A stretch of DNA of 64,000 nt from positions 321,719 through 385,718 of the forward strand of contig JBAZYF010000001.1 in NCBI GenBank assembly GCA_041659505.1, given 5' to 3'. A program made the position numbers and the translations under genes. Positions 22,904 through 63,810 of the stretch are shown piece by piece (positions within the stretch are counted from its first letter, which is position 1; each line of letters begins with the position of its first letter). The notes under the pieces were generated by a model that worked only from the letters and a program-made list of their open reading frames with translations, searched no databases and had not been told where the DNA came from. Source of the stretch: Parcubacteria group bacterium. Lineage in GTDB: Bacteria > Patescibacteriota > Minisyncoccia > Moranbacterales > UBA2206.

Positions 22904-23105
22904 TGTCATTCCCGCGACCGCGTGCTGCCTTAGCTTTAGCGGTGGAGCAAGGCGGGAATCCAGGTTTCACTAGTTGTAAACTCTAGAAAATTAAGTTGCA
23001 AGTGTAATAAACTTTATATATCAGTCAGTCTTGAATTTTAATAATTCGCTTCTTCTCAACTTTTAGCCTGAGGTGCCTGGATTCCCGCCTTCGCGGGAAT
23101 GACAC
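22904..23105. repeat. Terminal-inverted-repeat element, family C, copy 1 (with a 30-nt insertion in the 5' hairpin)
   Basis: GTGTCATTCCCGCG...GCGGGAATCCAGG at the 5' end is the exact reverse complement of the 3' end CCTGGATTCCCGCCTTCGCGGGAATGACAC. The interior is conserved across the three copies. Confidence 0.65.
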
Positions 23106-25960: not shown

Positions 25961-26709
25961 TTTGTCATACAGCTTTTGGCCTGTGCTTCAATTGCACAAC
26001 TTTTAGCTTGTGTTTCATTGGAAATAATTTTTCCATCTTCCATGTTGATGATCCTTGTTCCGAAACAATATTGACTTGGATTGTGCGTAACCATCACAAC
26101 CGTGAGACCAAATTGTTTGTTGATATCTTCAATCAGCTTCATTAATTCATCCCCCGCTTTATGATCAAGATTGCCCGTCGGTTCATCAGCAATAATCAAT
26201 TGCGGATCAAGCAAGAGCGAGCGAGCCAGGGCGATACGTTGTTGTTGCCCTCCGGAAAGATCATACGGCCGGTGATTAGCCCACTTGCTCATACCCACGA
26301 GCTCAATCAGTTTGGCCGCTTTTGGGATCGATTCGTGAAAAGAAGCGCCAGCGATAACGGCAGGGATAGTGATATTTTCAATGACTGAAAGCGATTTGAT
26401 CCAAAAAGCTTGCTGAGGAATGAAACCGATATTTTTATTGCGAAAATGGGCGCGCCAGTCTTTGGAATAGCTCCAAATATCTTTGCCATCAATAATAATT
26501 TTGCCTTCCGTCGGCGGTTCCAATCCATAGATCGAATGGAGCAAGGTAGACTTTCCGCAACCAGACGGACCGATGAGCAGACAAAACTCTCCCTTCATTA
26601 TCTCAAAATCCAAACCAAAAAGAATGGGGATAACATTTTCACCAACCCGAAATTCCTTTTTTATATTCTCCACTCTAATTTTTACTTCGCCCATAAATTT
26701 GACATCCAA
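25957..26709 (-). CDS. ABC transporter ATP-binding protein, MacB/LolD-like
   Basis: GPSGCGKST, LSGGQQQRIALARSL and IIADEPTGNLD. Confidence 0.85.
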   Translation of the reverse strand: MDVKFMGEVKIRVENIKKEFRVGENVIPILFGLDFEIMKGEFCLLIGPSGCGKSTLLHSIYGLEPPTEGKIIIDGKDIWSYSKDWRAHFRNKNIGFIPQQAFWIKSLSVIENITIPAVIAGASFHESIPKAAKLIELVGMSKWANHRPYDLSGGQQQRIALARSLLLDPQLIIADEPTGNLDHKAGDELMKLIEDINKQFGLTVVMVTHNPSQYCFGTRIINMEDGKIISNETQAKSCAIEAQAKSCMTK

Positions 26710-32700: not shown

Positions 32701-34709
32701 TACTTCAAGAAAGTCGTTTCCCCGTCTCCCAAAGTCAGATAGATATCGGTGCTGTTGACTTCTTCGCTAAAATATGTTCCTGGTGAAACCATCCGAGCGC
32801 CAACATTAGCAAAATACGCGACGCCTCCAACAACAATATCATTAGTCGCGCCACTAATACGAGCACAAGCAGAAAAACTAGTACCACAATCATAGAAGTA
32901 ACTTGAAATCGGGCTAGCTCCTCCGCCCGGCATTACATAATAATGACTGCCATTATAAATTATTCCTCCGCCATTCCCAACTGTCGGCATTCCAGTGGGA
33001 ACAGAAGAACCCCAACTCCCCGGAGCAGCTTGAGTAGTATCAAAAGTATAAACGGATGTTCCGCGCGGATAATATATAACTCCGGAAACCTCGTTAATTG
33101 TTCCGGTTGCATCAGCTGTTACGCTCGCTATTGATCCTCGCGTAATCCAGTCATTTTGCGAAACATCGTATTCATTGAAATAAACCGAATTGCCAGAAAC
33201 GGCGAAAACAGAGCTATCCTCCGCAACTGTCTTGCCATTCCAAATCAGATCGCCACCTGTTCCCACAGCCCTTAAGGTACCGGCTCCGTCCTGGACTTGC
33301 TCCGGACCGACCCATTGATGACCAATTGCTCCGCTTGGGTCATATTTCCAAAGATCAGTCGTTGCCGCACTTCCATTGCTGGCTCTTATGACATAAATAT
33401 TTTTATCCGTTTCATTGTAAGTCAAAGAAGAATAATTATTGTTTCCGGGAGCATTATCCACTGTAAACCAAGTATTTTTTTGTCCCGGACAAGTGCCGTC
33501 TGACCCATCATCACAAGTAATCTGATAGCGATAGAAGGTGGCCGTGTTAGTGGAACGCAAAAAGAAGAGACTTTTGGCGTGGCCCGCTCCTCCGCCATCC
33601 CAATAGACTCCCTTTTGCTCCCCATTAAAGTTAGCTAGAGTATTTGCCATTAGCTCCCAACTGCCCATATCATCATCCGTCGCGGGAATTAAAAAACGAT
33701 AAAAACTTGCAGTATTGCTTCCCCGAATTGCATAAAGATATCCATCATGACCATAGACAAGATCCCCTCCGGTATTAACGGTGGCTGGTGAAGTTATGCC
33801 GGATAAGTTTTGCCAATAAGGATCATCGGCATTTACATGATATTTATAAAAGTCACCGCTGGCATTTCCCCGTAAAAAATAAACGTCCGCACCGTCAGTT
33901 TCGATAGATGATCCATAGTAAGTAGAATCCCGCAAATCCGGAAGCTGTTTCCAACTTTGAGTCGCAATATTGAATTCATAAAATTTTTGTAAATATCCCC
34001 CAAAAATAGCATATATTTTCCCCGTTCCTTCGGTTGCGCCGGGAATAAAAGTCATATCAGCACCATAATTGGCGGGAAAAGGAAGATCCGGCAATGTTTC
34101 CCAGCGATCATTTACTGTGTCATAACGCCAAAATTCTTTATCCGCATATCCTCGCATAACATATAAATAGTTCCAGGCCATCTTGGAAGCACTGCCAAAA
34201 TATATTGTGTCCGGCGGAGCCGCCCACAGCCTAGCATCCCAGCTCCCCTGTGGCGCTAGCTGAATAGCATCTTGGCTAGTATTAGTGGTTACGCCGGTCA
34301 ATGACCCTAACTCCCAATCAAACGCAGAAGTCACTGTTTTGAATTGGGGTGAGGCGAGAATCGTTGGGATAATTCCGCCCAAAAAGACAAAAATTACAAA
34401 AGTAACAGTTAGGCGCAAAGTGGTTTTTGAAGCAAAAAGGATAATTTTAGTAAAGATCTTCTTTATATAACCAAAGATCGCTACCCATTTGCGCCGACGA
34501 AGATAGCTTTTCCCCAGGCTATGCTTGGAAGCCAAGTCATAATCTTGCAAAAATCCGCCCAGGCTTTCTTGGGTGATGAGAATTTTTTTCTTCCGTCTGC
34601 GCCTGCTTTCCAGATGAAAAAAGGTGAAAAATTTTCCCCACAAAAACGCCGTCTTTTTTTGAGAATATCTGGAAAGTCTATTTTTTTTATGTTTGGTCAG
34701 GTTGATCAA
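26682..34709 (-). CDS. Giant (2675 aa) membrane-anchored surface protein with repeated Kelch-type beta-propeller motifs and fibronectin-III-like domains
   Basis: N-terminal TM (VTFVIFVFLGGIIPTILA), dozens of Y-x-x-R/G-G...W-x-x-L repeats (YVMRGYADKEFWRYDTVNDRWETLPDLP and similar) and FN3-like blocks toward the C-terminus. The stop overlaps the ABC ATPase start. Confidence 0.75.
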   Translation of the reverse strand: MINLTKHKKNRLSRYSQKKTAFLWGKFFTFFHLESRRRRKKKILITQESLGGFLQDYDLASKHSLGKSYLRRRKWVAIFGYIKKIFTKIILFASKTTLRLTVTFVIFVFLGGIIPTILASPQFKTVTSAFDWELGSLTGVTTNTSQDAIQLAPQGSWDARLWAAPPDTIYFGSASKMAWNYLYVMRGYADKEFWRYDTVNDRWETLPDLPFPANYGADMTFIPGATEGTGKIYAIFGGYLQKFYEFNIATQSWKQLPDLRDSTYYGSSIETDGADVYFLRGNASGDFYKYHVNADDPYWQNLSGITSPATVNTGGDLVYGHDGYLYAIRGSNTASFYRFLIPATDDDMGSWELMANTLANFNGEQKGVYWDGGGAGHAKSLFFLRSTNTATFYRYQITCDDGSDGTCPGQKNTWFTVDNAPGNNNYSSLTYNETDKNIYVIRASNGSAATTDLWKYDPSGAIGHQWVGPEQVQDGAGTLRAVGTGGDLIWNGKTVAEDSSVFAVSGNSVYFNEYDVSQNDWITRGSIASVTADATGTINEVSGVIYYPRGTSVYTFDTTQAAPGSWGSSVPTGMPTVGNGGGIIYNGSHYYVMPGGGASPISSYFYDCGTSFSACARISGATNDIVVGGVAYFANVGARMVSPGTYFSEEVNSTDIYLTLGDGETTFLKYSNSTGSWVWSKLASTPFAQYYGTTMTYFAGKIYALAGYYKDEIWEYDISNNSWRKLPATEKYTFGRGVWQGANIEYSGGSSLYALIGNYGTAQDQTSMRHFQIGAHNFVNSSVSAGTYISQAMDLSTVSSWEGISANVDIPLNTGITFSTMTDADNANWPDETNSSNWHEVDNAQEEDGLLTADISSSEGTRRYIKIKINFVSTDGQNTPTVYDYTFSYNHNSQVPTNPSSLQGYSQQVGGFAIESEYSEGYPYEHPYFSWLGMTDNGSGINGYYVCFDSDSNCSEPVTGSNWSFQSGATYLANTPLSTGDYHLKIKTKDNEGKMANEIWDAFVYNYAGVSTATGVDPLHSVVTSTNDFTSGGSSSDVAVFGTGDAASLKLSPVSGFWNQNRLSTLLGNVYGGGELALGRCKDDTDVEPPYQFNDNHCLYTMAGNNLKIFYRYEIETDTWTTRATTPYNSNTGGSLVEGPEGYLYATRGAGNEVVVNAAAFWTYNILNNSWVELGNAPKSFAAGSNLTYDGSRYIYAMPGTDDVLLIYDTCNGVSGCTGGWKNPYSPASIENADFGNPYDAASGQFTGEGGDSVYDERNNMYVIQGNQYSYFAKYSFGNDADYGEVKNTWTPLTPAPEGFYNGGSLTYDSETDSIYAITGNNAAYNNFHQSFLKYDIKTDDWSNLPDAPSLVAYPGASLVAYDGYIYFMRGGNTNLFYRFNVAENSWETPQRGLFGPEIPKGNNNNVDSFFPFTNGAFTVDDDSRNLYMFRGGYDNTFEKYDVSTGASNELARLPVGAFNGASAAYVDGSLEGGSIYYVPGGLRTRRTDTKSPYFFRYDVNKNSWSNVLSNLPSLQIATGSSMTYDGSRYIYLTQGGANTVWWKYDTKETDTPVWLAMTGTGSCNSNDGSKILYYKDASDNEYIYKTQGGSSTSVYRYKFGTGWTNIGPLPGAAGAGSAMMDGGDGYIYVTRGGGNVATGNEYYRFNASQTGPVYTWENLNNTTSKVPAVVTTGGSGTNVSNRNWITSGNATYTYSSFQDGLFNYVVSSSANQVGFSKTGNYVSGVIDTHNSVYRWGNISIDYTLPDEVNNFLTFETRTSESGSLLPEDEADWSTWTPVSNEHVYGNRHVFNINSDPRQYIQVRIGFASADQIFSPRVDDFSIYYYQDIEQPNSPSAVTAYSKEATSAEDPRVIITNVTDEEYPTGQNWYGYDTPYFEWPVAGEANGASDNPNPGGSGISGYYVCFGTEEECPDAIANGDFQEGNTFSAPTLLPTDSGKKYYLKIAAVDNVGLPSESYTGFIYQLDKTAPTLPTNISANPSSYSSSSKFTWSWLDDAEDDQSGIDRFQYRLGNETPDTWHELTELGTLSQIVEPYQPNENEFYLKVLDVAGNETVSGAKYFFWSGGAASKPIGLEVNPSNEDNVTNNFTFTWHIPESYAGDSSKITYFYSVNYDPTPFNTVETTATSAGPGPFATQFGKNTFHIVAMSEGGSKTNPDDVDWEHPADVFFYARTTAPGPPLNAQAFDTSDREAAEYSIALKWSAPTTYDEGNFAGYAIFRSDDGINFGDEIAMTTGSAFVDTNLESKLYYYYVKSKDKTNNYSIPTSIVSLTPTGRYTTAPTLVGVPKVTVQSFAANFTWATNRVASSFVEYGTSSSFGKTNGQVDSLTDHMVDVTGLSAGTKYFYRVKYIDPDGNIGMSDILNFITLPPPTISEVLITNIVLNEAIVSWETNVSAACTLSYGAGTNKEESGGASHVQRINNLSADSTYTLKISCVDADLNEFSSDEYTFVTPKQPTASDVTVQNEENVDLPTIVIRYLTNVPTTTLVYFKSSEESSPHTFLTSEKVTEHEARIEGLDPAKEYTLSITGTDDNGINITPLEQKITTKSDSRPPKVVTNRSLGKVLGRGNNSQANVYIKIETDEETNVKVKYAKGVVTSTLEQTVSSDGLNTYHLITIPAEPGQVYSYEAECYDAVGNLTKTEITSVVVEKAKASATEVITGTFASRFGWMSNLWAK

Positions 34710-43156: not shown

Positions 43157-43891
43157 ATGCTCCAAGACAACCTCCAAAAAATCGGCCTAGACAAGAAAGA
43201 AAGCCAAGTCTATCTGGCGCTTTTGGAGTTGGGTAGCGCCAATATCGGGCAGATTGCCAAAAAATCCGCCGTTAAACGGACAACGGTCTATGATATTTTA
43301 GATTCCTTGAAAGAAAAAGGCCTATTAGGTCAGACTAAAAGCAAGAATCACACGCTCTTTTTCGCCGAAAACCCAGAAAAATTGGAACGACAGATCGAAG
43401 AAAAGAAAAAAATTATCCTAAAAGTGATGCCAGAACTTCTTTCCATCGCCAACCGATTGGAGAAAAAGCCTAAAATCAAGTTTTTTGAAGGAAAAGCTGG
43501 CATCAAAGAAGTTTATGAGGACACTCTGAAATATCCCGACCAAGAAATTTTAGCTTGGGCAACGGACGACGCGTTGAAATATTTCGACGCGCAGTATCTG
43601 TGGCATGAATATGTCCCCGCTCGGATAAAAAATCGCATTTGGGAGCGCACAATTGCGCCAAACAATGAACAAATGCGCCACGTCAAATCCTATGACCAAA
43701 AACACCTGCGCCAGATCCGCTTCGCGCCGGAAAACGAAACGCTCTTTGAAGTAGAAATTAATCTCTACGGCAAAAAACTGATCGGCATCATGGCCTTCGA
43801 AGAACAGATCGGCCTCATCATTGAAAGCGAAAAAATCTTCAACACTTTGAAAAGTATTTTTGAAATCAATTGGAAGGCGTTGGAGAAATAA
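43157..43891 (+). CDS. TrmB-family transcriptional regulator
   Basis: N-terminal wHTH LQKIGLDKKESQVYLALLELGSANIGQIAKKS plus the TrmB C-terminal domain. Confidence 0.7.
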   Translation: MLQDNLQKIGLDKKESQVYLALLELGSANIGQIAKKSAVKRTTVYDILDSLKEKGLLGQTKSKNHTLFFAENPEKLERQIEEKKKIILKVMPELLSIANRLEKKPKIKFFEGKAGIKEVYEDTLKYPDQEILAWATDDALKYFDAQYLWHEYVPARIKNRIWERTIAPNNEQMRHVKSYDQKHLRQIRFAPENETLFEVEINLYGKKLIGIMAFEEQIGLIIESEKIFNTLKSIFEINWKALEK

Positions 43892-43947: not shown

Positions 43948-44463
43948 ATGATAAAAAATGAAAAGCAACCTGCTATACCCAATGAAAGGATAATGAGCCA
44001 GATCTATTTCATCCGCGGGGAAAAAGTGATGTTTGACCGCGATTTAGCCGAGCTTTATGGCGTGGAAACTAGATTGCTTAAACAGGCAGTAAAAAGAAAC
44101 TTGGATCGATTTCCCGCAGACTTCATGTTTCAACTAAATAAAAAAGAACTTGAAATTTGGAGATCACAAATTGTGATGTCCAAAAGTGATAAGCAAGGAT
44201 TAAGATGGCTGCCAATTGTTTTCACCGAACAAGGCGTAGCGATGCTTTCGGCAGTTTTGAAAAGTAAGCGCGCCGTAGCAGTTAGCATCCAAATAGTACG
44301 GACATTCGTGAAGTTGCGAGAAATTCTTTCTACCCACAAGCAACTACGCGAAAAAGTTGAGCTGATGGAGGATAAGTATGACAAAAGTTTTAAGGTAGTT
44401 TTTCAAATGATTGCACAACTGATGAAGGAAGACGCGGAGCCGAAGAAACGTATTGGATTTTAA
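43948..44463 (+). CDS. ORF6N-domain (antirepressor-like) DNA-binding protein
   Basis: IRGEKVMFDRDLAELYGVETRLLKQAVKRNLDRFPADFMFQL...LPIVFTEQGVAMLSAVLKSKRAVAVSIQIVRTFVKLRE matches the ORF6N pattern. Confidence 0.65.
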   Translation: MIKNEKQPAIPNERIMSQIYFIRGEKVMFDRDLAELYGVETRLLKQAVKRNLDRFPADFMFQLNKKELEIWRSQIVMSKSDKQGLRWLPIVFTEQGVAMLSAVLKSKRAVAVSIQIVRTFVKLREILSTHKQLREKVELMEDKYDKSFKVVFQMIAQLMKEDAEPKKRIGF

Positions 44464-47345: not shown

Positions 47346-49019
47346 ATGAAAAAAACTTTATCCATAATTATACTCATGTTGTTGCTACCAATAGGAGTTA
47401 TGGCAACATTTCAGATACCATCGGATCGCTCCATCACATGGACAGGAAATGCTGGAGTAAATGGAGGCATTCCGATTAGAACTACTATTTGCCAAACTAT
47501 TACAGCATCTAGTGGAGACAGGACAGCTGAAATCCAGACCGCCATAAACAACTGCCCATCAGGTCAGGTAGTATTGCTAGGTGCTGGGACATTTAACATA
47601 TCTGGGTTACAAATGAAAACCGACGTCACTTTGCGTGGTTCTGGCATGGGATCAACAATAATCGTGCCAAGTGGTTCTGAGTTTATTCATTTTGGAGCTT
47701 ATGGGGTAGATTATGGTACAGCCGTTGGGCTATCAAGTGGATTAACTAAAGGTTCAACCTCAATCACAACCTCTGGGAATCACGGATGGAATGTGGGTGA
47801 TTGTATTGTTATCGATCAATTAAACAATGCGGCAGGAGACCCGCCAGTCACTAATGTCGGAGAAGGTGGCAGTATGACCATGAGCGGCCGAACAGGAGAT
47901 GGGACAAGGGCAATCCAACAAGTAGTCAAATTGGTAGCACCTACATCTGGAACCACGGCAACGCTTGAAATCCCGCTATACTGGACTATGGATGGTACAA
48001 AAACACCGCAGGCAGCAAAAGTAACAATGCAAGTTACAAACGCTGGGATTGAGGATTTAACTTTTAACTCATCCTACTTCTATAACGTTACCATTTTCAA
48101 TGCCGATAATTGCTGGCTGAAGGGAGTGGAGTTGAATGGATTTTCCGAATCTGGAATGGGAATTTATTTGACAAATGCTTATAGAATCCAGATTGAAAAA
48201 TGCAATTTTCATCAGGTGGTTGCCGGGACAGCTAATGACAACTACGCAATTACCTCAGCAATGACGGGTAGCGCGCATCTGATTCAAAATAACACAATCC
48301 ATAACGTATCCTGTGGGGTAGTGATTCAGGGTGGATTTTCTGGCGGAGTCATTGCTTACAATTATCTGACAAACATATGGCAAGAGGTATATCCAACCGC
48401 AAATAGATATGCAATCGGACTTCATGGTGGGCATCAATTTCAAAACTTATTTGAGGGAAATGTAATCGAAGGTGCTCTTTTTAGTTCTGATAATTACTGG
48501 GGGTCAAATAGCAATAATACATTATTCCGAAACAGAATCCATATGGATTATACGAAAGTGGATCAACTGGTCACTCTTGGGGTGTCAAACAACCAAACAT
48601 ACTACAATGTGATTGGAAATTATCTTGGCACTGCCGGACAGGACGACGCATATGAAACCACAACTATCCCGTATGCACCATCATCTAAATATATTTATTT
48701 TACCCCTTCTGGGGCATGTAAAACAACAATGCTCCGACATGGAAACTGGGACGCAGTAACGGCAGGACAAAAATGGTGTGATAGTAGCGGAGAGCCTGGA
48801 TGTCAAGGTGCAACTGTAGATCATTCATTGCCTGATTCACTTTATTATGACTCAAAACCAGCATTTTTCGGGTCCATCGCATGGCCACCAATTAATCCAG
48901 AAACCCCTTTTGTCGCTGATATTCCTGCGAAAGTATATTATGATACTGGTTCATGGCCAGATACAGGAGGCGATGACACCACGCCACCAAATGTGCCTAG
49001 CGGGCTGAGCGTGGAATAA
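47346..49019 (+). CDS. Secreted right-handed beta-helix (pectate-lyase-fold) protein
   Basis: Signal peptide MKKTLSIIILMLLLPIGVMA followed by repeated NxxIxN/GG beta-helix rungs (NNTIHNVSCGVVIQGG). It ends abruptly at TTPPNVPSGLSVE, which may be a C-terminal truncation. Confidence 0.55.
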   Translation: MKKTLSIIILMLLLPIGVMATFQIPSDRSITWTGNAGVNGGIPIRTTICQTITASSGDRTAEIQTAINNCPSGQVVLLGAGTFNISGLQMKTDVTLRGSGMGSTIIVPSGSEFIHFGAYGVDYGTAVGLSSGLTKGSTSITTSGNHGWNVGDCIVIDQLNNAAGDPPVTNVGEGGSMTMSGRTGDGTRAIQQVVKLVAPTSGTTATLEIPLYWTMDGTKTPQAAKVTMQVTNAGIEDLTFNSSYFYNVTIFNADNCWLKGVELNGFSESGMGIYLTNAYRIQIEKCNFHQVVAGTANDNYAITSAMTGSAHLIQNNTIHNVSCGVVIQGGFSGGVIAYNYLTNIWQEVYPTANRYAIGLHGGHQFQNLFEGNVIEGALFSSDNYWGSNSNNTLFRNRIHMDYTKVDQLVTLGVSNNQTYYNVIGNYLGTAGQDDAYETTTIPYAPSSKYIYFTPSGACKTTMLRHGNWDAVTAGQKWCDSSGEPGCQGATVDHSLPDSLYYDSKPAFFGSIAWPPINPETPFVADIPAKVYYDTGSWPDTGGDDTTPPNVPSGLSVE

Positions 49020-50269: not shown

Positions 50270-50778
50270 TTATTGATGTGGAACTTCCAAATGCCAGTTG
50301 CCATTTTTAAAGCCATCATATTTTTGGTTAAACTTATCACCAAAAATCAGGGGCTTAATACTTTCCCAGAATTTCAAAAGTCTGGTCAAGCCCGATGAAT
50401 CATATTCAGCATAGCGATTTATTTGTATCATCATAAATAAATTTTCACGCTCTACACCATAATAAACCCAGAGTCTAACGCACCCGTCTTTCGTAGTGGT
50501 CGACATGCAATGGAAAGAACCATGGTACTTGTCAAAGTCATCTGAAGAAATCCATCCAAGCTTGCAAAAAACATTCTTTGCTTCTTCCTTCCTGTCATTG
50601 TCTTTCCATAGATTAATCAAGTTGTTACAGAATTCAATGCACTCCTCATCGGAATTCAACATTTGAAATGCTTTGCTGATAGGAATGCGACTTCTATTAA
50701 TAGTATCGTGAAAATAGAAAATAGCCACTTTCTCCCGATCATGAAAAGCTTTTTCGCCGATTATGATAGTATTCAATA
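50270..50778 (-). CDS. Hypothetical protein (169 aa)
   Basis: An ATG at 50778 (MSDILNTIIIGEK...) is preceded by AGGAGA, so I chose it over the track's 243-aa call. Confidence 0.4.
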
Positions 50779-51124
50779 TATCGCTCATTACTATTCTCCT
50801 TGTTTTAAAGGTACATTTTTTTGTCTCCCCGAGAATCCATTTCTCAGCTTGACTCCGGAGTATAGCACGTCTATTGTTTATTGTCAACAGTAATCTTGCG
50901 ACAATATTGACATAAGTTTTAAACTGATGTATAATTAAGCCAGGATAAGGGATTTTTGGAATTTGGTCAGTTTGAGATTGACAGAAATCGATAGTGGACA
51001 TTTTGCGGACAGTCTCTACGAATTACGAATTTGTACGAATATACGAATGTAAAAATAACCCCCATGTGACTAGTTTTAGTTATATTTTAGTCAAACTTTA
51101 ATATAACTTGACTATAGTTTTAGT

Positions 51125-52393: not shown

Positions 52394-53140
52394 ATGGAAA
52401 ACGAACTAAAACAACTTGGGCTCACACCCAATGAAATCAAGATCTATAACGCGCTGTTGGAATTGGGCGAAAATACGGTGGGGCCACTGATCAAAAAGCT
52501 GGGGATGCATCGCCAGGTGGCTTATGACGCGCTGGAAGGATTAGAAAGTAAAAAGATGATTTTGAAAACTACCAAAAATAACCGCTTGGTTTTTCGGGTG
52601 GCTAATCCGCAAAATATTCTCGACAACATCAAGCAACAAGAAATCATCGCTTCTAGTTTGGTCGAAGAAATCAATTCCAAACTAACCGGTCAACAAAAAG
52701 GTCAAGAGATTCGAGTTTATGAAGGCGCCAAGGCTTATCGAGAGTTAATTAAAAGAAAAGATGATTTGATGCCGGAGAATTCGCAATACCTAGTTGTCAC
52801 TGGCGCGGCGATGAAATTCAAAGAAATAATGCTCAAATCCGGTGTGTTTGAAAGAAGTAACCGCATCCGCATGAAAAAAAATATCAAGACAAAATTGATT
52901 TTTGGCAACATCAGCTCCGCGGAAGCCCAGCTTGTCAAACGCGCCAACTCGGAATATCGCTTTTTGCCGGAAGGCTATTCTTCGCCAACATCATTTGACA
53001 TTTGGCACGACTCCATCACTCTCAATTCCTATGGCTCGGGAAACGGCGATGATATGTTTTGCATCGAAATCAAAAACGAAGACTTCCGCCAGTCTTATCT
53101 GACCTATTTCGATCTGCTTTGGAAGATGGCGAAAAAATAA
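52394..53140 (+). CDS. TrmB-family transcriptional regulator
   Basis: N-terminal LKQLGLTPNEIKIYNALLELGENTVGPLIKK wHTH. Confidence 0.7.
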   Translation: MENELKQLGLTPNEIKIYNALLELGENTVGPLIKKLGMHRQVAYDALEGLESKKMILKTTKNNRLVFRVANPQNILDNIKQQEIIASSLVEEINSKLTGQQKGQEIRVYEGAKAYRELIKRKDDLMPENSQYLVVTGAAMKFKEIMLKSGVFERSNRIRMKKNIKTKLIFGNISSAEAQLVKRANSEYRFLPEGYSSPTSFDIWHDSITLNSYGSGNGDDMFCIEIKNEDFRQSYLTYFDLLWKMAKK

Positions 53141-53148
53141 TTGAAATG

Positions 53149-53991
53149 CTATTTATTCAAAAGCCTCTTATTCTCCGGATTTTTTATAAAATTCTTTTTA
53201 GAAACCAGCGATCTGCCCAACTTAGTTTCCAATTCTTTTCTGGCATTGCCAGCAATTCTTCCGCCAATCTTTGCATCATCTTTCAGCTTTTTCACGCCTT
53301 TGGAATTTTCATTTTTATGAATTTCCGTTGTCGACCGCTCGCCAAGCATCGTAAAAATCAGCTCGAAATCATCCATATGATCACGCAAGTTTTCGCGCTT
53401 CAAGCCTTTTAGTTTTTTGTATTCAACCGGCGTCACGCCAAAAGTCGCTTTAGAAATTTCCGCTGTCAAAATTTCATAATCTCGATTTTCTCTTGCGCCT
53501 CGCTTTTGCCACTCATCCGTCAGTTCTTCGCGAATTACAATCCCGCGCATGCGCTTTTCGATCCAATCCTCGGAATAGCCCTTGAGCTTATAGAGTGCTC
53601 TGGTTCTTTTGGCTGCCAATTCCGGATCTTCGATTTCCTGCACTCGCTCATAACCAACTTTCGCCAGCCAGCGCTTCAGAGGCTCGGCTTTGGGCGAAGG
53701 AATTGATTGAATAATGCGAAACATCCCTTCGGTGTTAGCGCAATCGGTTTCACGCATTTTTCCATCAGGAGCCAGCAATTTCAACTGTCTACAAATTGTA
53801 GATAGTTGAAACTCGGCCTCATCTTTAACTCTTGCCTTCATCGCAGTCCAATAAACACTTGGGCGATCGCTATCTGTAAGCGCATAAATTACATCCACAA
53901 CCGAAAACCACCATTCATTTTGATAGATGATTTTTCGAATTTCCTTGCCCTTGAAAACGGCAACTTTCGTGGAGAAAATATTTTTGTTCAT
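53149..53991 (-). CDS. BRO-N-domain protein, DinD (DNA-damage-inducible protein D)-like
   Basis: N-terminal FKGKEIRKIIYQNEWWFSVVDVIYAL resembles Bro-N/DinD. The overall architecture resembles DinD-type proteins. Confidence 0.5.
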   Translation of the reverse strand: MNKNIFSTKVAVFKGKEIRKIIYQNEWWFSVVDVIYALTDSDRPSVYWTAMKARVKDEAEFQLSTICRQLKLLAPDGKMRETDCANTEGMFRIIQSIPSPKAEPLKRWLAKVGYERVQEIEDPELAAKRTRALYKLKGYSEDWIEKRMRGIVIREELTDEWQKRGARENRDYEILTAEISKATFGVTPVEYKKLKGLKRENLRDHMDDFELIFTMLGERSTTEIHKNENSKGVKKLKDDAKIGGRIAGNARKELETKLGRSLVSKKNFIKNPENKRLLNK

Positions 53992-56691: not shown

Positions 56692-57633
56692 ATGCCAGAA
56701 CTGCCAGAAGTTGAGACAATTACAACAGATTTAAACCAAAAAGTCAAGGGATTGATTATTACAAAATTTTGGTCAGATTTTCCGTCGGCCATAAAAGGCA
56801 CGACGCTTTTGCAGTTTCAACGCGAGATGAAAAACAAAAAAATCCTTTCCGCCCAGCGGGTGGGGAAAAATATATTCCTCCATCTTTCTGGCGGGAAATC
56901 GCTGCATATTCATTTGCGGATGACGGGACATTTGCTTGTGAAATTAAATCCACCTCACCCTAGCCCTCTCCTTAGTAAGGAGAGGAGACAAAAATACAAA
57001 AAAAGCCCTTCTCCTTACCAAGGAGAAGGTGGCCGTAGGCCGGATGAGGTGGATTTTTTCAACGATAAGGTCAATCAATATATTCACCACATTTGGTATT
57101 TAAATAAAAACAAGACATTGGAATTTTCTGATTTGCGAAAGTTTGCAACGATGCGACTTCTGGAGACAAATAGTATTAAAAAATATTTGGCGGAAAAAAA
57201 GATTGGTATTGATGCGATGAGTGAACAGTTTACGCTGACAAAATTCAATGAACTGCTTGACGCTAAACCAAAAATGCTCATTGGCATCTTCCTCCTTGAT
57301 CAAAGTATCATTTCCGGCATTGGAAACATCTATCGCAGTGAGATTCTTTTTGCCTCCGGAGTTTTGCCAGAACGCAAAAATGAAAGTCTGGAAAAAGACG
57401 AGCGCAAAAAAATCTTTCTGGCCACAAAAAAAATCCTAAAACTGGCCATCAAAATGCGCGGAACATCCGACAGTGATTATCGCGACTCAGATGGTGCGCC
57501 GGGACATTTTCAAGAAATGCTAAAAGTCTATCGTCGAGATAAATTGCCATGTCCCGCAAAATGCGGCGGACTAATTTTGCGCAAAAAAATGGCACAAAGA
57601 AGTGTGTTCTTTTGTGCCAAATGCCAGAAATAA
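56692..57633 (+). CDS. mutM: Formamidopyrimidine-DNA glycosylase (Fpg/MutM), with an in-frame repeat-derived insertion
   Basis: MPELPEVETI N-terminus with catalytic P2/E3 and the C-terminal zinc finger CPAKCGG...FFCAKCQ. The ~35-aa segment NPPHPSPLLSKERRQKYKKSPSPYQGEGGRRPDEVDFF is encoded by the GC-rich double-hairpin repeat. Confidence 0.8.
   Translation: MPELPEVETITTDLNQKVKGLIITKFWSDFPSAIKGTTLLQFQREMKNKKILSAQRVGKNIFLHLSGGKSLHIHLRMTGHLLVKLNPPHPSPLLSKERRQKYKKSPSPYQGEGGRRPDEVDFFNDKVNQYIHHIWYLNKNKTLEFSDLRKFATMRLLETNSIKKYLAEKKIGIDAMSEQFTLTKFNELLDAKPKMLIGIFLLDQSIISGIGNIYRSEILFASGVLPERKNESLEKDERKKIFLATKKILKLAIKMRGTSDSDYRDSDGAPGHFQEMLKVYRRDKLPCPAKCGGLILRKKMAQRSVFFCAKCQK
57006..57049. repeat. GC-rich double-hairpin (REP-like) element inside the fpg coding sequence
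   Basis: CCCTTCTCCTTACCAAGGAGAAGGTGGCCGTAGGCCGGATGAGG. It is translated in frame as part of Fpg. Confidence 0.6.
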
Positions 57634-57646
57634 TCTAACTTTTTTT

Positions 57647-57817
57647 GTGTCATTCCCGCGAAGGCGGGAATCCAGGTTCCACTAGTTTTAAACTCTGAAA
57701 AATCGAGCCACAGGTCTGACAAGCTCTCGGTTTCAGAAAGTCTTGCATTTTAACAATTTGTTTTTACTTTATTTTTAACCTGAGGTGCCTGGATTCCCGC
57801 CTTCGCGGGAATGACAC
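57647..57817. repeat. Terminal-inverted-repeat element, family C, copy 2
   Basis: 171 bp with 30-bp perfect terminal inverted repeats, in a convergent intergenic region. Confidence 0.65.
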
Positions 57818-58143: not shown

Positions 58144-59967
58144 TTACCATCCTCCCCCACCACCGCCTCCTCCGCCACCGCCTGAACCGCCGCCACCGCC
58201 AGCACCTGAGCCGGAAGAAGTATTGGCGGCCATTGCCGAAGACAAGCTGTCGATCTGCGATGAAAAACTATCCGCGTCAAAGGATGCAAGACTGCTACCA
58301 ACAAACCAACCAGGGTGATAGGAATTGAAATAATCTTCGCCATAGATTTCTTTCATTTTCTTAATCCAGAGTTTCGTCATTCCAAACATAATCGCGTAGG
58401 GTAAAAGTTTTTCAAAAATATTTTCTTTCTCATAAAATTGGTCACGGTACTTTTCTGCCGTTTCCATGTAGAGCTTGAAACCTTGCGTTTTCCAAAAAAC
58501 TTCAGCCCCAGAAGATGTTCTTTTGGGCATCAAAAAGGCGAAAATAAAGAGAATAATCGTAGTGAAGATCATTGCCGGCAAACTCAGAAAGGAATAAGCC
58601 GCAAGGATAAATGTCAAAAACACAAAAGCAACACCTAAAATCAAAAAGGCGACTTGGAAACTCAAGCCAGCAACTTCGATAAACTTTTTCTCCTCCAAGT
58701 TTTTTATGGTTTCTTTTTTAATCTTCGATATGCTTTGGTAAAACTTATTGCGAAGCGACGAAAGCATCACTTCGTCTTTCCCTGAAAATACACCTTCGAT
58801 CAAAACTTGCTCCGGCTGGGAAAGTTCGGCTATTCTTGCCTGATCAATTATTTTCAATCGAAAATCTTTGCCGATATGCAAAAAATTCAAGGTCTTTTCT
58901 ATGAAACTTTTTTGCTTGTCTGAAAATTCAGAGACCACTTCCTTAGCGGGACCATCCGGCACAGAATCAAGTCCTTCGGTCTCCTCGATCTGGATAATTT
59001 TTTTGACTGCCAGATTGATGATTGCGGCGGTGATATATTCATTCTTTAATGTTCCATTGAAAAAAAGCGTCCCCAATTCCAATGGAGAAAGCTTTTCCGG
59101 CACATCAAACTCAGTGATGATTGTTTTGTCCATTCTGGGATCTTTGCCATATTTATTCCAAAGGCCGAAGCAAATTGCAAAAGCGACAAGCGGAATGATA
59201 AACCAAAGATAAAAAGCATACTTTTCAATAAACGTCGGGGCATAGGGCGTGAAAATATTTTTCGAGAAAGTGATTGAGGCCGTGATTCCTTCGCCAATAC
59301 CAAGCATGCCAGTTGACTGGAATTGCAAGATATTATCGCTGATCCAAGAATAATTGGCACCAGCCTGGCTTTTACTGCCAATACTGCCGGTATAATAATC
59401 CACTTTAGTATTATTTTTTGTGACTTCAGCAGGAAAAACTATTGTGCCAGTAAAGTTGTCTGTTTCAATGTCCCAAAAATTACCGTTCAAGTTCCAATAA
59501 AGCTCGTCAAAAGCAGGATTATCAAAAAGGATGGTATTTTTTATTTTATAGGTTATGAGATAATTATTCACTCCGGTCACGGTCCGATCAGGATCACCAA
59601 TCTTCCACGTCACCGTATTATTCGAATAGTTTTTTTGCGTGGAATATTGCAAGCTTTTTCCAGCAAAATCCGTGATACTCACAAGTTCGACCGGCATCGA
59701 GATTGTTTCGTCCGTCGTACGAAAAACAGTCGGCAAAGTGCGGAAAATTCCGTGTTTGCCGGAAGCCATCCCACAATCAGCTGTGATTCTCTCTGCGATG
59801 AGTAATGTTGAATCTTTGTTGACTAAAATTTCTGATTGAAAATCTTTGATATACCAATCAGTGACATTGGTCCGCGCAGTAACAGCAGCTCGCGCGTCGA
59901 CTCCAAAAAGCGAGAATGCCAATCCAGCTACAATCAAAACAAAAAAGTATTTTCTCATATAATTCAT
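58144..59967 (-). CDS. DUF2207-family membrane protein with a C-terminal poly-Gly tail
   Basis: Signal peptide, large extracytoplasmic N-domain, TM helices and a C-terminal run of glycines. Confidence 0.6.
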   Translation of the reverse strand: MNYMRKYFFVLIVAGLAFSLFGVDARAAVTARTNVTDWYIKDFQSEILVNKDSTLLIAERITADCGMASGKHGIFRTLPTVFRTTDETISMPVELVSITDFAGKSLQYSTQKNYSNNTVTWKIGDPDRTVTGVNNYLITYKIKNTILFDNPAFDELYWNLNGNFWDIETDNFTGTIVFPAEVTKNNTKVDYYTGSIGSKSQAGANYSWISDNILQFQSTGMLGIGEGITASITFSKNIFTPYAPTFIEKYAFYLWFIIPLVAFAICFGLWNKYGKDPRMDKTIITEFDVPEKLSPLELGTLFFNGTLKNEYITAAIINLAVKKIIQIEETEGLDSVPDGPAKEVVSEFSDKQKSFIEKTLNFLHIGKDFRLKIIDQARIAELSQPEQVLIEGVFSGKDEVMLSSLRNKFYQSISKIKKETIKNLEEKKFIEVAGLSFQVAFLILGVAFVFLTFILAAYSFLSLPAMIFTTIILFIFAFLMPKRTSSGAEVFWKTQGFKLYMETAEKYRDQFYEKENIFEKLLPYAIMFGMTKLWIKKMKEIYGEDYFNSYHPGWFVGSSLASFDADSFSSQIDSLSSAMAANTSSGSGAGGGGGSGGGGGGGGGGGW

Positions 59968-60070
59968 TTTATTTTTAATAGCTCAATCTTAACATACAAA
60001 TGGCTTTTTAAAAAAATAAAGGGGTGTGGGTTATAAAATTAAAACTCACACCCCACCTGAAATGAACGTA

Positions 60071-60472
60071 TCAACCATAGGCCACCTCTTTTTTAGAAAG
60101 AAGAGGCCAAGCACACTGAGTTATGCGATCTTCTTCATCCAACTTATATGCGCCACATCTTTCCGCCACCTTTGTCGGCTTAAGTATCACCCTATTGATC
60201 AACCGGCACACATTGCCACAGACACCTGCGCCCACAAAGAAGCTCCTGACACAATTACTACAACTTCTTGTTATTAAAGCTACCTCCTTTTTGCATTCAT
60301 CACAAAGCATCGTAGTTGTAAATTCATCCGTTTGATCGAACAGACACCGACACTTCATGATGCAGTTATCATCACAAAACATCAGCATTCTGACTCTGCA
60401 TCCGATCGACGACTTACATCTATAGCATCCGAAATACTCATCATTAACATTAAGCCTTGCACTTTCTCTCAT
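60071..60472 (-). CDS. Cysteine-rich small protein (133 aa, about 20 Cys)
   Basis: ORF with an AAGGAG RBS 6 nt upstream. CxxC, CxxxC and CxC clusters, no signal peptide. Confidence 0.45.
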   Translation of the reverse strand: MRESARLNVNDEYFGCYRCKSSIGCRVRMLMFCDDNCIMKCRCLFDQTDEFTTTMLCDECKKEVALITRSCSNCVRSFFVGAGVCGNVCRLINRVILKPTKVAERCGAYKLDEEDRITQCAWPLLSKKEVAYG

Positions 60473-60484
60473 ATCTTCTCCTTT

Positions 60485-60682
60485 CTAAGCATGCCCATCT
60501 ATGCGATGATAGCAGGGGTTTTTACATGCTTCGTGAAATTCGGTTAATATTATTTCCGGGGTAGTTTTATCCCAGATGCAATTAAGCAGGAAACAACGCC
60601 CTTCGCACCATCTGTTTAGAATAAAAACACAGCCGACATTTTTGCCACATACTGGACAAACAAAAAGTACGGTTGAAGACAT
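60485..60682 (-). CDS. Cysteine-rich small protein (65 aa)
   Basis: AGGAGG RBS upstream. CPVCG...C...C...C...C pattern. Confidence 0.4.
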   Translation of the reverse strand: MSSTVLFVCPVCGKNVGCVFILNRWCEGRCFLLNCIWDKTTPEIILTEFHEACKNPCYHRIDGHA

Positions 60683-60756
60683 AAAATCAATCCTCCTTTT
60701 TTTCTTTTTTTATGCCAAAGCTATTACACCTTTGGGCATAATCCAAATCTCTATTT

Positions 60757-61080
60757 TTAGGAAATACCGAACAACCACCAACTTCCTTTGCACTTAAGAC
60801 AACTTTTTTCCTCAGGAGATGTGTCTGTGACTAAATCGACGACTTCATCGATTTTTTGACATGAAGTATTTCCCTTGCTCGTCGCAATTTCCACATATCC
60901 CCAAGAAAAAACGCCAGGATCTCCCTTCGCTCGTGCCTTAGTACATTTTGGATTTTTATCGTTATCCAGAATTGTCGGAATTTCTGGATACAGCGGACAA
61001 TCTCCTGCCAGCGACCTTTTTTCCAGAGAGCAACGACTTCCTCTGAAAATTCCACATTCTCCACAGCAGATATCATTCAT
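60757..61080 (-). CDS. Cysteine-rich small protein (107 aa)
   Basis: AAGGAG RBS upstream. N-terminal CCGECG...C...C, a central CTK and a C-terminal CLKCKG. Confidence 0.45.
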   Translation of the reverse strand: MNDICCGECGIFRGSRCSLEKRSLAGDCPLYPEIPTILDNDKNPKCTKARAKGDPGVFSWGYVEIATSKGNTSCQKIDEVVDLVTDTSPEEKSCLKCKGSWWLFGIS

Positions 61081-61409
61081 AATTCTTACTCCTTTAGCTA
61101 GAATTAAGAAAATACAAATACCACAAATTGTTAAAGAAACAAAAAACCGGTTCCCTCCTAGGACCGGCTTTGGTTTTTGTAAAATGATTTTTCTCTATGC
61201 GCTAATCTTCATTTCTCAAAAACCAAAGCCGGCCGGTGGTAATCCCGGACATATTATTATTGACTCGCTTGGTTGTTTGATAAATACTGTGCATGCGATA
61301 AATATAGCAAACGGTCAAATTCTGTCAATAGTCGCTACGTTCTGTCAAAGCCTTCCCTATTTCGGAGTATTGCGATATAATAGGAAAGTAATTTTTAAAC
61401 TTAAATTTA

Positions 61410-63638: not shown

Positions 63639-63810
63639 GTGTCATTCCCGCGGAGGCGGGAATCCAGGTTCCACTAATTATAAAAGTTTTAGAAAGTCGA
63701 GCTGCAAGTGCAATAAACTTTCTATTTAGGCAAGTCTTGAATTTTAATAATTCGTTTTTCTTTATTTTTAACTTGAGGTGACTGGATTCTCGCCTCCGCG
63801 GGAATGACAC
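63639..63810. repeat. Terminal-inverted-repeat element, family C, copy 3
   Basis: 172 bp with the same termini and conserved interior. Confidence 0.65.

What the first reader, a model, noticed from the sequence alone, without database searches (positions are those of the whole stretch)
60071..61400. Operon of three cysteine-rich small proteins with strong ribosome-binding sites, preceded by a long inverted repeat and TTCTGTCAA direct repeats
Three consecutive minus-strand ORFs (107, 65 and 133 aa) each have an AAGGAG or AGGAGG site at correct spacing. They contain 10, 9 and about 20 cysteines in CxxC, CxxxC and CxC clusters, have no signal peptides, and match nothing I recognise. Candidates are metal-binding or metallothionein-like proteins, redox sensors or RiPP-related proteins. 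The 320-bp leader (61081-61400) contains an inverted repeat ACCGGCTTTGGTTTTT...AAAAACCAAAGCCGG (61163-61233) and two TTCTGTCAA direct repeats (61320-61328 and 61340-61348) that look like operator or attenuator features. Downstream is a DUF2207 membrane protein with a poly-Gly tail.
Basis: seen in the sequence. Interest (0 to 1): 0.55.

Follow-up and report, generated by a model that had tools for sequence, protein, structure and literature searches.

The report
Variable cysteine-rich mini-protein operon with attenuator
A small group of uncultured Parcubacteria carries a self-contained operon of tiny cysteine-rich proteins with no known relatives, whose gene content differs between near-identical strains and which sits behind a strongly conserved RNA leader that looks like a classic transcription attenuator; it is real and unclassified, but its function is still unknown.

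Summary
Three tightly packed minus-strand ORFs with good ribosome-binding sites, the 24-nt-arm inverted repeat and the two TTCTGTCAA copies are all at the stated coordinates. The real cysteine counts are 9, 8 and 15, not 10, 9 and about 20.

The ORFs are real genes. ORF1 has dN/dS of 0.1-0.23 against its homologues, and core cysteines are conserved in each family. They are orphans: an exhaustive HMMER search of 1.84 billion representative proteins found only two ORF1-family clusters, one of them the window's own protein. Pfam, NCBIfam, PHROGs, PADLOC and PDB gave no significant match.

The same slot between DUF3048 and DUF2207 was recovered in five other lineages. It holds at least five small Cys families (A, B2, C1, D, E) in varying combinations, with cassette swaps between strains about 96% identical. 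In the window, ORF1 is frameshift-truncated, ORF2 is a C1 paralogue and ORF3 is a C1+B2 fusion.

The TTCTGTCAA repeats are TTGACA -35 boxes. The hairpin is the antiterminator of a four-segment leader: anti-antiterminator, antiterminator, then terminator with a U-run. A 29-30-codon ORF starts at the predicted transcription start. The leader is far more conserved than neighbouring synonymous sites.

Metallothionein and RiPP readings are not supported. Zinc- or iron-sulfur-binding mini-proteins are likely but unproven.

The parts
61301..61328 (-). Sigma-70-type promoter: TTGACA, 16-nt spacer, TG-c-TATATT (11 of 12, extended -10). The -35 is the downstream TTCTGTCAA/TTGACAGAA copy.
   Evidence: The same geometry (TTGACA, 16-17 nt, TAnnTT, 6 nt, ATG) is present in L014, L001, L012 and L013.
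61340..61348 (-). Second TTGACAGAA copy, 20 bp upstream. It gives a weaker promoter-like match (10 of 12) and is not conserved.
   Evidence: It is absent from the L001 group (30-nt gap). L014 has only a degenerate TTGAATAGA.
61202..61294 (-). Leader ORF of 30 codons plus stop (MHSIYQTTKRVNNNMSGITTGRLWFLRNED*). Its ATG lies 7 nt after the -10 hexamer, at the predicted transcription start (leaderless). Its stop lies in the loop of hairpin P1.
   Evidence: L014 has a 30-codon homologue whose indels are multiples of 3. L001, L012 and L013 have a 29-codon ORF. Being open by chance is about 23% per lineage, so this evidence is weak on its own.
61262..61286 (-). Segment 0 (anti-antiterminator), containing the invariant ACAnCCAAG. 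In the nascent RNA it pairs with the 5' arm of P1.
   Evidence: all five lineages. Invariant columns.
61233..61248 (-). Small hairpin P0b (CCGG-GAUUACCA-CCGG) with an invariant AUUA in the loop. In the L001 group the stem is CCAGUC/GACUGG.
61164..61232 (-). It has 23-24 bp, a 21-nt loop, and a predicted energy of -31 kcal/mol.
   Evidence: Across five lineages 91% of cells pair, 16 of 23 pairs are invariant, and covariation is not significant. It contains G-U pairs, which are valid only in the minus-strand RNA.
61141..61167 (-). Leader terminator: CCGGUCCUAGGAGGGAACCGG followed by U6. Its 5' arm (CCGG) is also the base of the P1 3' arm, so the two structures exclude each other.
   Evidence: All five lineages have an equivalent hairpin plus U5-7, with different 3'-arm sequences. 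The scan tool reported it on the plus strand.
60757..61080 (-). ORF1 (107 aa, family A). The N-domain is CxxC-x7-C-x10-C-x17-C. The gene is truncated by a frameshift after CLKC. RBS AAGGAG at 61089-61094.
60690..60788 (-). Relic of the ORF1 C-terminal 4-Cys module, readable only in the +1 frame (KEVGGCSVFPKNRDLDYAQRCNSFGIKK...).
   Evidence: (BLASTP E = 2e-9 against P0003). The same 107-aa allele occurs in three other assemblies.
60485..60682 (-). ORF2 (65 aa), a divergent paralogue of family C1. RBS AAGGAGG at 60692-60698.
   Evidence: It was called as a gene in an ENA assembly (P0006).
60071..60472 (-). ORF3 (133 aa), a fusion. Residues 1 to about 64 are family C1 (a separate 66-74-aa gene in L014 and L015). 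Residues about 67-133 are family B2 (separate 60-68-aa genes in L001, L012, L014 and L015).
60010..60054 (-). Operon-end intrinsic terminator (GGGGUGUG.../...CACACCCC followed by a U-run), lying before the DUF2207 gene.
   Evidence: (I4). Equivalent terminators are present in L001, L012, L013 and L014.

Best explanation
This is a self-contained transcription unit (promoter, 150-nt regulatory leader, 2-4 small genes, terminator). It is confined to a narrow clade of Parcubacteria/Moraniibacteriota and sits between the DUF3048 and DUF2207 genes.

Shown:
- The genes encode soluble 55-142-aa proteins from at least five unrelated orphan families (A, B2, C1, D, E).
- The four families with several members each have their own conserved set of cysteines: four or five in A, four in B2, seven in C1 and eight in D. 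E is known from a single sequence.
- The gene set is reshuffled between lineages, and even between about 96%-identical strains, by cassette replacement, fusion (window ORF3), duplication (ORF2) and frameshift loss (ORF1 tail).

Inferred for the proteins: the cysteine sets most likely hold structural Zn(Cys)4 sites, or possibly iron-sulfur clusters, that stabilise mini-domains acting as intracellular binding modules.

Inferred for expression: it is gated by a trp-type transcription attenuator. In the nascent RNA, segment 0 pairs with segment 1, so segment 2 pairs with segment 3 and forms a terminator. If segment 0 is masked, segments 1 and 2 form the long hairpin P1 and RNA polymerase reads through.

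The most likely trigger, at about 50%, is a ribosome translating the leaderless 29-30-codon leader ORF. A ribosome stalled early would switch the operon on; a ribosome that reaches the stop codon in the P1 loop would switch it off.
For: Coding:
- ORF1 dN/dS is 0.10-0.23 with saturated dS.
- Conserved Cys columns are present in families A, B2, C1 and D.
- All three window ORFs have strong, correctly spaced RBSs.

Orphan status:
- The exhaustive profile search returned only P0002 (the window's own protein) and P0004.
- Word-indexed searches found only the same few lineages.
- Nothing significant came from Pfam, NCBIfam, PHROGs, PADLOC, PDB, IMG/VR or INPHARED.

Cassette variability:
- Gene maps of L001, L012, L013, L014 and L015 differ.
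- L012 and L001 are about 96% identical up to ORF1 codon ~132 and 93.5% identical again from the operon terminator. Between those points lie 432 versus 255 bp with no detectable similarity.

Leader:
- The promoter matches 11 of 12 positions.
- P1 is predicted at -22 to -31 kcal/mol in all five lineages.
- Terminator hairpins of -10 to -16 kcal/mol followed by U5-7 occur in all five, with different 3'-arm sequences.
- P1 and the terminator share nucleotides, and the two states have comparable energies.
- Segment 0 pairs with segment 1 in all five nascent-RNA folds.
- Leader nucleotide identity is 80-89%, against 48-51% at third codon positions of the adjacent DUF3048 gene.
- No conserved second promoter lies between the terminator and ORF1; spacings after the TTrACA block are 21, 21, 14 and 9 nt.
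- The covariance model finds exactly one copy per locus.
Against: - Metal binding is inferred only from cysteine patterns. Both AlphaFold models are unusable (pLDDT 37 and 39), and no zinc-ribbon or Fe-S Pfam model is matched significantly.
- P1 is conserved in sequence, so covariation is not significant (57 of 500 shuffles reach the observed score).
- In the window itself the antiterminated state is 7.8 kcal/mol more stable and the terminator is weak. This copy may read through largely constitutively.
- The leader ORF would be open by chance in about 23% of shuffles per lineage. Its reading frame over the hairpin differs between the two leader groups, and only the window has a run of identical codons (NNN).
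- The transcription start site is predicted, not measured.
Confidence: 0.55

Rival explanations
1. The attenuator architecture is the same, but the switch is set by a small ligand, metal ion or RNA-binding protein. The binding site would be the segment 0 / P0b / segment 1 three-way region, as in a riboswitch or protein-dependent antiterminator. The leader ORF would be incidental.
For: - The AUUA in the P0b loop and the ACAnCCAAG block are invariant.
- The leader ORF is not statistically compelling.
- The peptide frame is not conserved across the hairpin between the two leader groups.
Against: - No Rfam family matches, even at E <= 10; only generic hairpin hits appear.
- Only one copy exists per locus and none elsewhere in 64 kb.
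- No candidate regulator gene is conserved next to the operon.
- The ATG sits exactly at the predicted +1 in all five lineages, and indels in the window/L014 pair keep the frame.
Confidence: 0.3
2. The 150-nt promoter-to-terminator unit is an independent small RNA gene. The Cys-rich ORFs downstream would be expressed separately or only by leak-through.
For: - It is a complete promoter-plus-terminator unit and the most conserved piece of the locus.
- A conserved TTrACA block follows the terminator.
Against: - Spacing from that block to any -10-like hexamer is 21, 21, 14 and 9 nt, so it is not a conserved promoter.
- P1 and the terminator are mutually exclusive, which is a cis-regulatory design.
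- The unit is always directly upstream of a family-A gene.
Confidence: 0.15
3. The proteins are metal-storage or detoxification proteins (metallothionein-like) under metal-responsive control.
For: - Cysteine is abundant and lies in CxxC, CxxxC and CxC clusters.
- There is one very weak hit of the L012 64-aa protein to a nickel-binding family: 15.8 bits against a cut-off of 125.
Against: - Cys is 5-16%, with 3-12 aromatic residues per protein and hydrophobic cores.
- There is no Pfam metallothionein hit.
- There is no Zur- or Fur-like box, and no ArsR/SmtB gene adjacent.
- Strain-level cassette turnover is not expected for metal homeostasis genes.
Confidence: 0.05
4. The ORFs are RiPP precursor peptides (for example ranthipeptide- or sactipeptide-like).
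For: Tandem small Cys-rich genes that vary between strains.
Against: - No radical-SAM, YcaO, LanM or peptidase-transporter gene appears among the larger ORFs scanned (43-64 kb and the largest ORFs elsewhere in the window) or among the called neighbours in any homologous locus.
- There are no NCBIfam precursor hits.
- The proteins are 55-142 aa and conserved along their whole length, rather than having a conserved leader and a variable core.
Confidence: 0.04
5. The window's copy is a decaying relic with little or no present function.
For: - ORF1 is frameshifted and has lost its C-terminal module.
- The window's terminator is weak.
- Family-A content varies; L014 lacks 14 residues and the C-terminal module.
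Against: - The identical allele was found in three other assemblies.
- The ORF1 N-domain is under purifying selection.
- ORF2 and ORF3 are intact, with strong RBSs.
- The leader is 80% identical to L014 against 51% at neutral-like sites.
Confidence: 0.1

Closest known systems
Ribosome-mediated transcription attenuators of amino-acid operons (E. coli trpL, hisL, pheL type); from my own knowledge
   Same: - Four successive RNA segments form mutually exclusive 0:1, 1:2 and 2:3 helices, and the last is a terminator with a U-run.
- A short leader ORF overlies the first segments, with its stop codon just before the third.
- The whole unit lies between a strong promoter and the first structural gene.
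   Different: - No Rfam leader family matches.
- The leader ORF appears leaderless: its ATG is at the predicted +1.
- No conserved run of regulatory codons is present; NNN occurs only in the window.
- The controlled genes are not biosynthetic.
- The host is a CPR bacterium.
Small one-domain zinc-finger or zinc-ribbon proteins (CPxCG-type 'mu-proteins' of archaea; YacG-like); from my own knowledge
   Same: - Soluble proteins of 55-140 aa.
- CGECG and CPVCG knuckle motifs.
- Conserved cysteines in sets of four or eight.
- Families C1 and D have CxxC or Cx(1-2)C at both ends.
   Different: - No significant Pfam or PDB match; the best is YacG at E = 0.1.
- Families A and B2 have one CxxC plus two isolated Cys rather than two knuckles.
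- The fold could not be predicted.
Bacterial metallothioneins (SmtA/BmtA)
   Same: Small, Cys-rich and cytoplasmic.
   Different: - Much lower Cys fraction.
- Many aromatic and hydrophobic residues.
- No family match.
- No metal-regulator context.
Variable small-gene cassette loci behind a fixed regulatory element (anti-CRISPR/aca operons, bacteriocin-immunity arrays, integron cassettes). This is an analogy only, from my own knowledge.
   Same: - A conserved promoter, leader and first gene are followed by tightly packed small ORFs.
- Those ORFs are swapped between near-identical strains at sharp breakpoints.
- L012's B2 gene resembles that of distant L014 (75% nt) more than that of its near-identical relative L001.
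   Different: - The slot is chromosomal and flanked by core genes.
- Composition matches the flanks.
- No integrase, attC, HTH regulator, phage or defence-system match was found.

Membership tests
trp/his-type ribosome-mediated attenuator | Overlapping alternative helices ending in an intrinsic terminator (hairpin plus U-run). | tested here: met
   Predicted in all five lineages. This is a thermodynamic prediction only.
trp/his-type ribosome-mediated attenuator | A short translated leader ORF that overlaps the first segments and ends before the antiterminator's 3' arm. | tested here: inconclusive
   An ORF of 29-30 codons runs from the predicted +1 to the P1 loop in all five lineages. Such an ORF arises in about 23% of shuffles, and translation was not tested.
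trp/his-type ribosome-mediated attenuator | A run of codons for the sensed amino acid within the leader ORF. | tested here: not met
   The window has AAU x3. L014 has N-L-N. The L001 group has a single N followed by C. No conserved run exists.
Known riboswitch or leader RNA families (Rfam 15) | A match to a covariance model at the gathering score. | tested here: not met
   Only tRNAs reach gathering score in the window. In the leader only sub-threshold generic miRNA-hairpin hits appear.
Zinc ribbon / small zinc-finger proteins | A sequence match to a zinc-ribbon family model. | tested here: not met
   Best Pfam E-values are 0.04-0.36, below the cut-offs, and only for the second CPDC of the L001 68-aa protein. 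PDB YacG scores E = 0.1.
Zinc ribbon / small zinc-finger proteins | Four conserved Cys ligands arranged as two knuckles. | tested here: inconclusive
   C1 and D have terminal CxxC or Cx(1-2)C pairs. A and B2 have CxxC plus two single Cys.
Zinc ribbon / small zinc-finger proteins | Bound Zn and the zinc-ribbon fold. | not testable with these tools
   The AlphaFold models have pLDDT 37 and 39, so no fold search was meaningful.
Bacterial metallothionein | Very high Cys content with few or no aromatic residues, and a family match. | tested here: not met
   Cys is 5-16% with 3-12 aromatic residues per protein. There is no Pfam hit.
RiPP precursor | A neighbouring maturation enzyme, and a precursor with a conserved leader and a variable core. 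| tested here: not met
   No such enzyme appears among the scanned larger ORFs of the window or the called genes in six loci. Conservation is spread over the whole proteins. There is no NCBIfam precursor hit.
Ferredoxin-type 4Fe-4S protein | The CxxCxxCxxxCP motif and a Fer4 family match. | tested here: not met
   The L013 D protein has CQICQQCIGC, but the third Cys is His in L014. There is no Pfam hit.
Anti-phage defence or phage-borne genes | A match to PADLOC or PHROGs models, or presence on viral contigs. | tested here: not met

The most novel reading that the evidence does not exclude
The locus is a CPR-specific 'cassette array'. A fixed regulatory head (leaderless-uORF attenuator plus family-A gene) drives a recombining, strain-variable set of metal-stabilised mini-proteins. 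These would take part in a conflict or host-interaction process, for example inhibitors of phage or host proteins. The attenuator would fire when translation is perturbed. That would be a new kind of hypervariable intracellular effector locus in ultra-small bacteria.
Probability: 0.15. Interest if true: 0.7.

Novelty: new variant of a known kind. Interest (0 to 1): 0.42.

Why it matters
CPR/Patescibacteria genomes are full of unannotated small genes and almost nothing is known about their gene regulation. This locus gives a concrete, testable example of transcription attenuation in this group, possibly ribosome-dependent and leaderless. It also gives a set of five orphan Cys-rich mini-protein families whose strain-level cassette turnover suggests adaptive, rapidly changing roles. 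If the families prove to bind metal and the leader proves to sense translation, the locus would be a compact model for regulation and small-protein innovation in organisms that cannot yet be grown alone. If not, it remains an ordinary lineage-specific hypothetical operon.

Tried and rejected
1. Known-family assignment. Pfam, NCBIfam, PHROGs, PADLOC and PDB sequence searches were run on all window ORFs and eight homologues or paralogues. Nothing was significant.

2. Structure route. AlphaFold2 was run on the intact family-A protein (3-sequence alignment) and on ORF3 (6-sequence alignment). The results were pLDDT 37 and 39, so no fold search was run.

3. My early idea that all proteins are built from one repeated module (CxxC..F..C..A..C..Y). 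Profile-profile comparisons between families A, A-C-terminal, B2, C1 and D gave E = 0.05-0.24 and probability <= 1%. This is not supported, so they are treated as separate families.

4. Formal covariation for P1. It is not significant because the stem is conserved in sequence.

5. Leader ORF significance by shuffling. About 23% of shuffles have an ORF at least as long, so this is weak on its own.

6. Zur and Fur box searches in the leader gave no match there.

7. A second promoter between the leader terminator and ORF1. The conserved TTrACA block has non-conserved spacing to any -10-like hexamer, so this was rejected.

8. Programmed +1 frameshift to rescue the ORF1 tail. An AAA-G slip site is conceivable, but there is no stimulatory element and the closest relative, L014, lacks the module altogether. 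I consider it unlikely (below about 5%).

9. Foreign origin. GC content is the same as the flanks, and there are no viral or phage matches.

10. More distant DUF3048 loci (L007-L011). They lack both DUF2207 synteny and any Cys-rich cluster.

11. Literature. Searches for CPR cysteine-rich small proteins and for a DUF2207/DUF3048 link found nothing relevant.
Full report
**1. Observation**

The three minus-strand ORFs are at the stated coordinates: 61080..60757 (107 aa), 60682..60485 (65 aa) and 60472..60071 (133 aa).
- Each has a strong Shine-Dalgarno site: AAGGAG with an 8-nt spacer, AAGGAGG with 9 nt, and AAGGAG with 5 nt. The ORF3 site overlaps the ORF2 stop codon.
- Hydropathy shows no membrane segment or signal peptide.
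- The inverted repeat has arms 61164-61187 and 61209-61232, 24 nt, 92% complementary.
- The 220-nt leader folds better than all 200 shuffles, z = -3.76.
- TTCTGTCAA occurs exactly at 61320-61328 and 61340-61348. This is only weakly above chance: 3 in the window against 0.75 expected, and 6 of 100 shuffles reach 3.
- The downstream gene is a DUF2207 protein with a poly-Gly-Trp tail. The divergent upstream gene is DUF3048.

**2. Source and relatives**

ORF1 is identical to a hypothetical protein of a 'Parcubacteria group bacterium' MAG. It recurs unchanged in three other assemblies.

Homologues are extremely rare.
- A word-indexed search of 5.8 billion proteins found one other ORF1 cluster, P0003 from Moraniibacteriota, at 59% identity.
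- An exhaustive HMMER profile search of 1.84 billion representatives returned only the window's own protein and one other cluster, represented by P0004.
- ORF3 alone found only a fragment of itself.
- A mixed profile of ORF3, ORF2 and paralogues added P0005 and P0007-P0009.

From these I recovered five further loci: L001/L006, L012, L013, L014 and L015. All lie in the same slot. DUF3048 is on one side wherever the contig reaches that far (L015 is too short). On the other side is DUF2207, except in L013, where it is DUF1653.

More distant DUF3048 loci (46-60% identity) have neither the synteny nor any Cys-rich cluster.

**3. The ORFs are real genes**

- ORF1 against its homologues gives dN/dS of 0.10-0.23 with saturated synonymous sites.
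- The plus-strand 181-aa ORF across the leader has no counterpart in L001.
- ORF2 and ORF3 have no close orthologues, but they have clear paralogues or orthologous modules with conserved cysteines.

**4. Anatomy of the cluster**

The small proteins fall into at least five families.

| Family | Members | Conserved cysteine pattern |
|---|---|---|
| A | ORF1, P0003, P0004, L012, L014 92-aa | N-domain CxxC-x7-C-x10-C-x17-C; plus a C-terminal 4-Cys module in the three full-length members |
| B2 | five members | Four invariant Cys: CxxC-x12-14-C-x15-16-C |
| C1 | four members | Seven conserved Cys, including CDDxC and a terminal CxxCKK |
| D | two members | Eight conserved Cys |
| E | one member (L012) | 8 Cys in the single sequence; conservation cannot be assessed |

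Profile-profile comparisons do not show that the families are related to each other (E = 0.05-0.24).

Gene content differs by lineage.

| Lineage | Cassette order |
|---|---|
| Window | A (truncated) - C1' - C1+B2 fusion |
| L014 | A - B2 - C1 - D |
| L012 | A - B2 - E |
| L015 | A - B2 - C1 |
| L001 | A - B2 |
| L013 | A - D |

So window ORF3 is a fusion of two modules that are separate genes elsewhere, and ORF2 is a divergent C1 paralogue.

Window ORF1 is truncated. Relative to both intact homologues, the stretch between two conserved Cys codons is 16 nt instead of 21 or 27. The remaining C-terminal module is readable only in the +1 frame. The same allele in three other assemblies rules out a sequencing error.

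**5. Cassette turnover**

- L012 and L001 are about 96% identical in DNA up to about codon 132 of the A gene and 93.5% identical again from the operon terminator. The 432 versus 255 bp between those points share no detectable similarity.
- L015 is a third variant on the same backbone.
- L012's B2 gene is 75% identical in DNA to that of the distant L014. It has no detectable nucleotide similarity to the B2 gene of its near-identical relative L001. The aligned proteins are also very different.
- Flanking DUF3048 proteins are 56-75% identical between lineages, while family A is 46-59% identical and ORF3-C against the L001 68-aa protein is 32%.
- GC content matches the flanks.
- There are no matches in IMG/VR, INPHARED, PHROGs or PADLOC.
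- In L014 a RadC gene and a Phd/YefM-domain gene are inserted between DUF3048 and the leader promoter, so the slot tolerates insertions.

**6. The leader**

- The downstream copy is the -35 of an 11-of-12 promoter: TTGACA, 16 nt, TG-c-TATATT.
- The upstream copy is missing in the L001 group. L014 has only a degenerate version.
- In all five lineages an ATG lies exactly 7 nt after the -10 hexamer.

The nucleotide sequence from that point to the end of a U-run (about 150 nt) is far better conserved than third codon positions of the adjacent gene.

| Pair | Leader identity | DUF3048 third-position identity |
|---|---|---|
| Window vs L014 | 80% | 51% |
| L001 vs L013 | 89% | 48% |

The structural features are as follows.
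- **Hairpin P1.** It contains G-U pairs, which are valid only in the sense-strand RNA.
- **Overlap with the terminator.** The base of the P1 3' arm is also the 5' arm of a hairpin followed by U5-7. That hairpin's 3' arm differs in sequence between lineages yet keeps complementarity.
- **Upstream pairing.** In the nascent RNA, an upstream block containing the invariant ACAnCCAAG pairs with the P1 5' arm in all five lineages.
- **Energies.** Constraint folding gives comparable energies for the two states in L001, L012 and L013. In the window the read-through state is favoured by 7.8 kcal/mol.

This is the four-segment logic of a trp-type attenuator.

A 29-30-codon ORF begins at the predicted +1 and stops in the P1 loop in every lineage.
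- Between the window and L014 its indels are multiples of three.
- Its frame over the hairpin differs between the two leader groups.
- An ORF that long arises in about 23% of shuffles.

I therefore rate ribosome control at about 50% and ligand or protein control at about 30%. Other checks:
- No Rfam family matches.
- No Zur- or Fur-like box is present.
- A covariance model of the leader finds one copy per locus and none elsewhere in the window.
- Formal covariation for P1 is not significant, because the stem is conserved in sequence.

**7. What the proteins do**

This step is inference. Three features fit structural Zn(Cys)4 or Fe-S mini-domains:
- conserved cysteines in sets of four, seven or eight;
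- CGECG and CPVCG knuckles;
- hydrophobic and aromatic cores in soluble proteins of 55-142 aa.

No model could be obtained (pLDDT 37 and 39) and no family is matched, so this is unproven.

Metallothionein is unlikely on composition and context.

RiPP precursors are unlikely for three reasons.
- No maturation enzyme was seen among the scanned larger ORFs of the window, or among the called neighbours of any related locus.
- No NCBIfam precursor model is matched.
- The proteins are conserved along their whole length.

The strain-level cassette exchange is more typical of conflict or adaptation loci than of housekeeping functions. There is no direct evidence for that reading.

**8. Verdict**

The features are best described as follows:
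- an orphan, clade-restricted, cassette-variable operon of Cys-rich mini-proteins;
- expression gated by a strongly conserved attenuator-type leader;
- in the window, one gene truncated by a frameshift and one gene formed by fusion.

The kinds of parts are known (small Cys4 proteins, a terminator/antiterminator leader). The families and the particular combination are not described. Interest is moderate.

Noticed in passing
window 57647-57817 and 63639-63810; solo end at 23076-23103: There are two direct copies of a roughly 171-bp MITE-like element with 46-bp terminal inverted repeats (GTGTCATTCCCGCGAAGGCGGGAATCCAGG...), 5,992 bp apart. They bracket the block DUF1653-DUF2207-Cys operon-DUF3048-holA. 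The element is the source of the spurious 'WIPAFAGMT/VIPAEAGIQ' ORFs. It is present in the same-lineage locus L003 but in none of the other related loci, so it is probably unrelated to the operon.
   Followed up: partly
L014 2001-3448: In one related lineage a RadC gene and a 243-aa Phd/YefM-antitoxin-domain gene are inserted between DUF3048 and the leader promoter of the Cys operon. The 243-aa protein has no PADLOC hit.
   Followed up: partly
window 61100-61140 (leader, after the terminator); A8 columns 208-230: A block TTCnTTrACAAT directly after the leader terminator is conserved in all five lineages. Its spacing to any -10-like hexamer is not conserved. Its function is unexplained.
   Followed up: partly
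window 61233-61248 (P0b loop): The loop of the small hairpin between segment 0 and P1 carries an AUUA that is invariant in all five lineages, although the stem sequence differs (CCGG/CCGG versus CCAGUC/GACUGG). It could be a recognition site.
   Followed up: no
window 26682-34709 (-): A giant 2,675-aa ORF with many Kelch repeats and a purple-acid-phosphatase N-domain-like segment.
   Followed up: no
window 56692-57633 (+): The Fpg/MutM homologue (313 aa) appears to carry a roughly 30-aa proline/lysine-rich insertion (…PPHPSPLLSKERRQKYKKSPSPYQGEGGRRPDEV…) after the N-terminal domain. Domain identity comes from the precomputed Pfam hits.
   Followed up: no
window 58144-59967 (-); L001 6725-8443; L014 4650-6368: The DUF2207 protein ends in a conserved poly-glycine run closed by a single Trp (…GGGGGGGGGGGW) in all three lineages.
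   Followed up: no
window 43948-44463 (+), 53149-53991 (-), 43157-43891 (+), 52394-53140 (+): ORF6N-domain and Bro-N-domain proteins (often phage-associated DNA-binding domains) and several TrmB-family regulators are scattered through the neighbourhood. TrmB genes also recur near the related loci.
   Followed up: no
window 1106-3793 (-), 47346-49019 (+), 50270-51001 (-): Large ORFs of 895, 557 and 243 aa have no Pfam match at E <= 1e-5.
   Followed up: no
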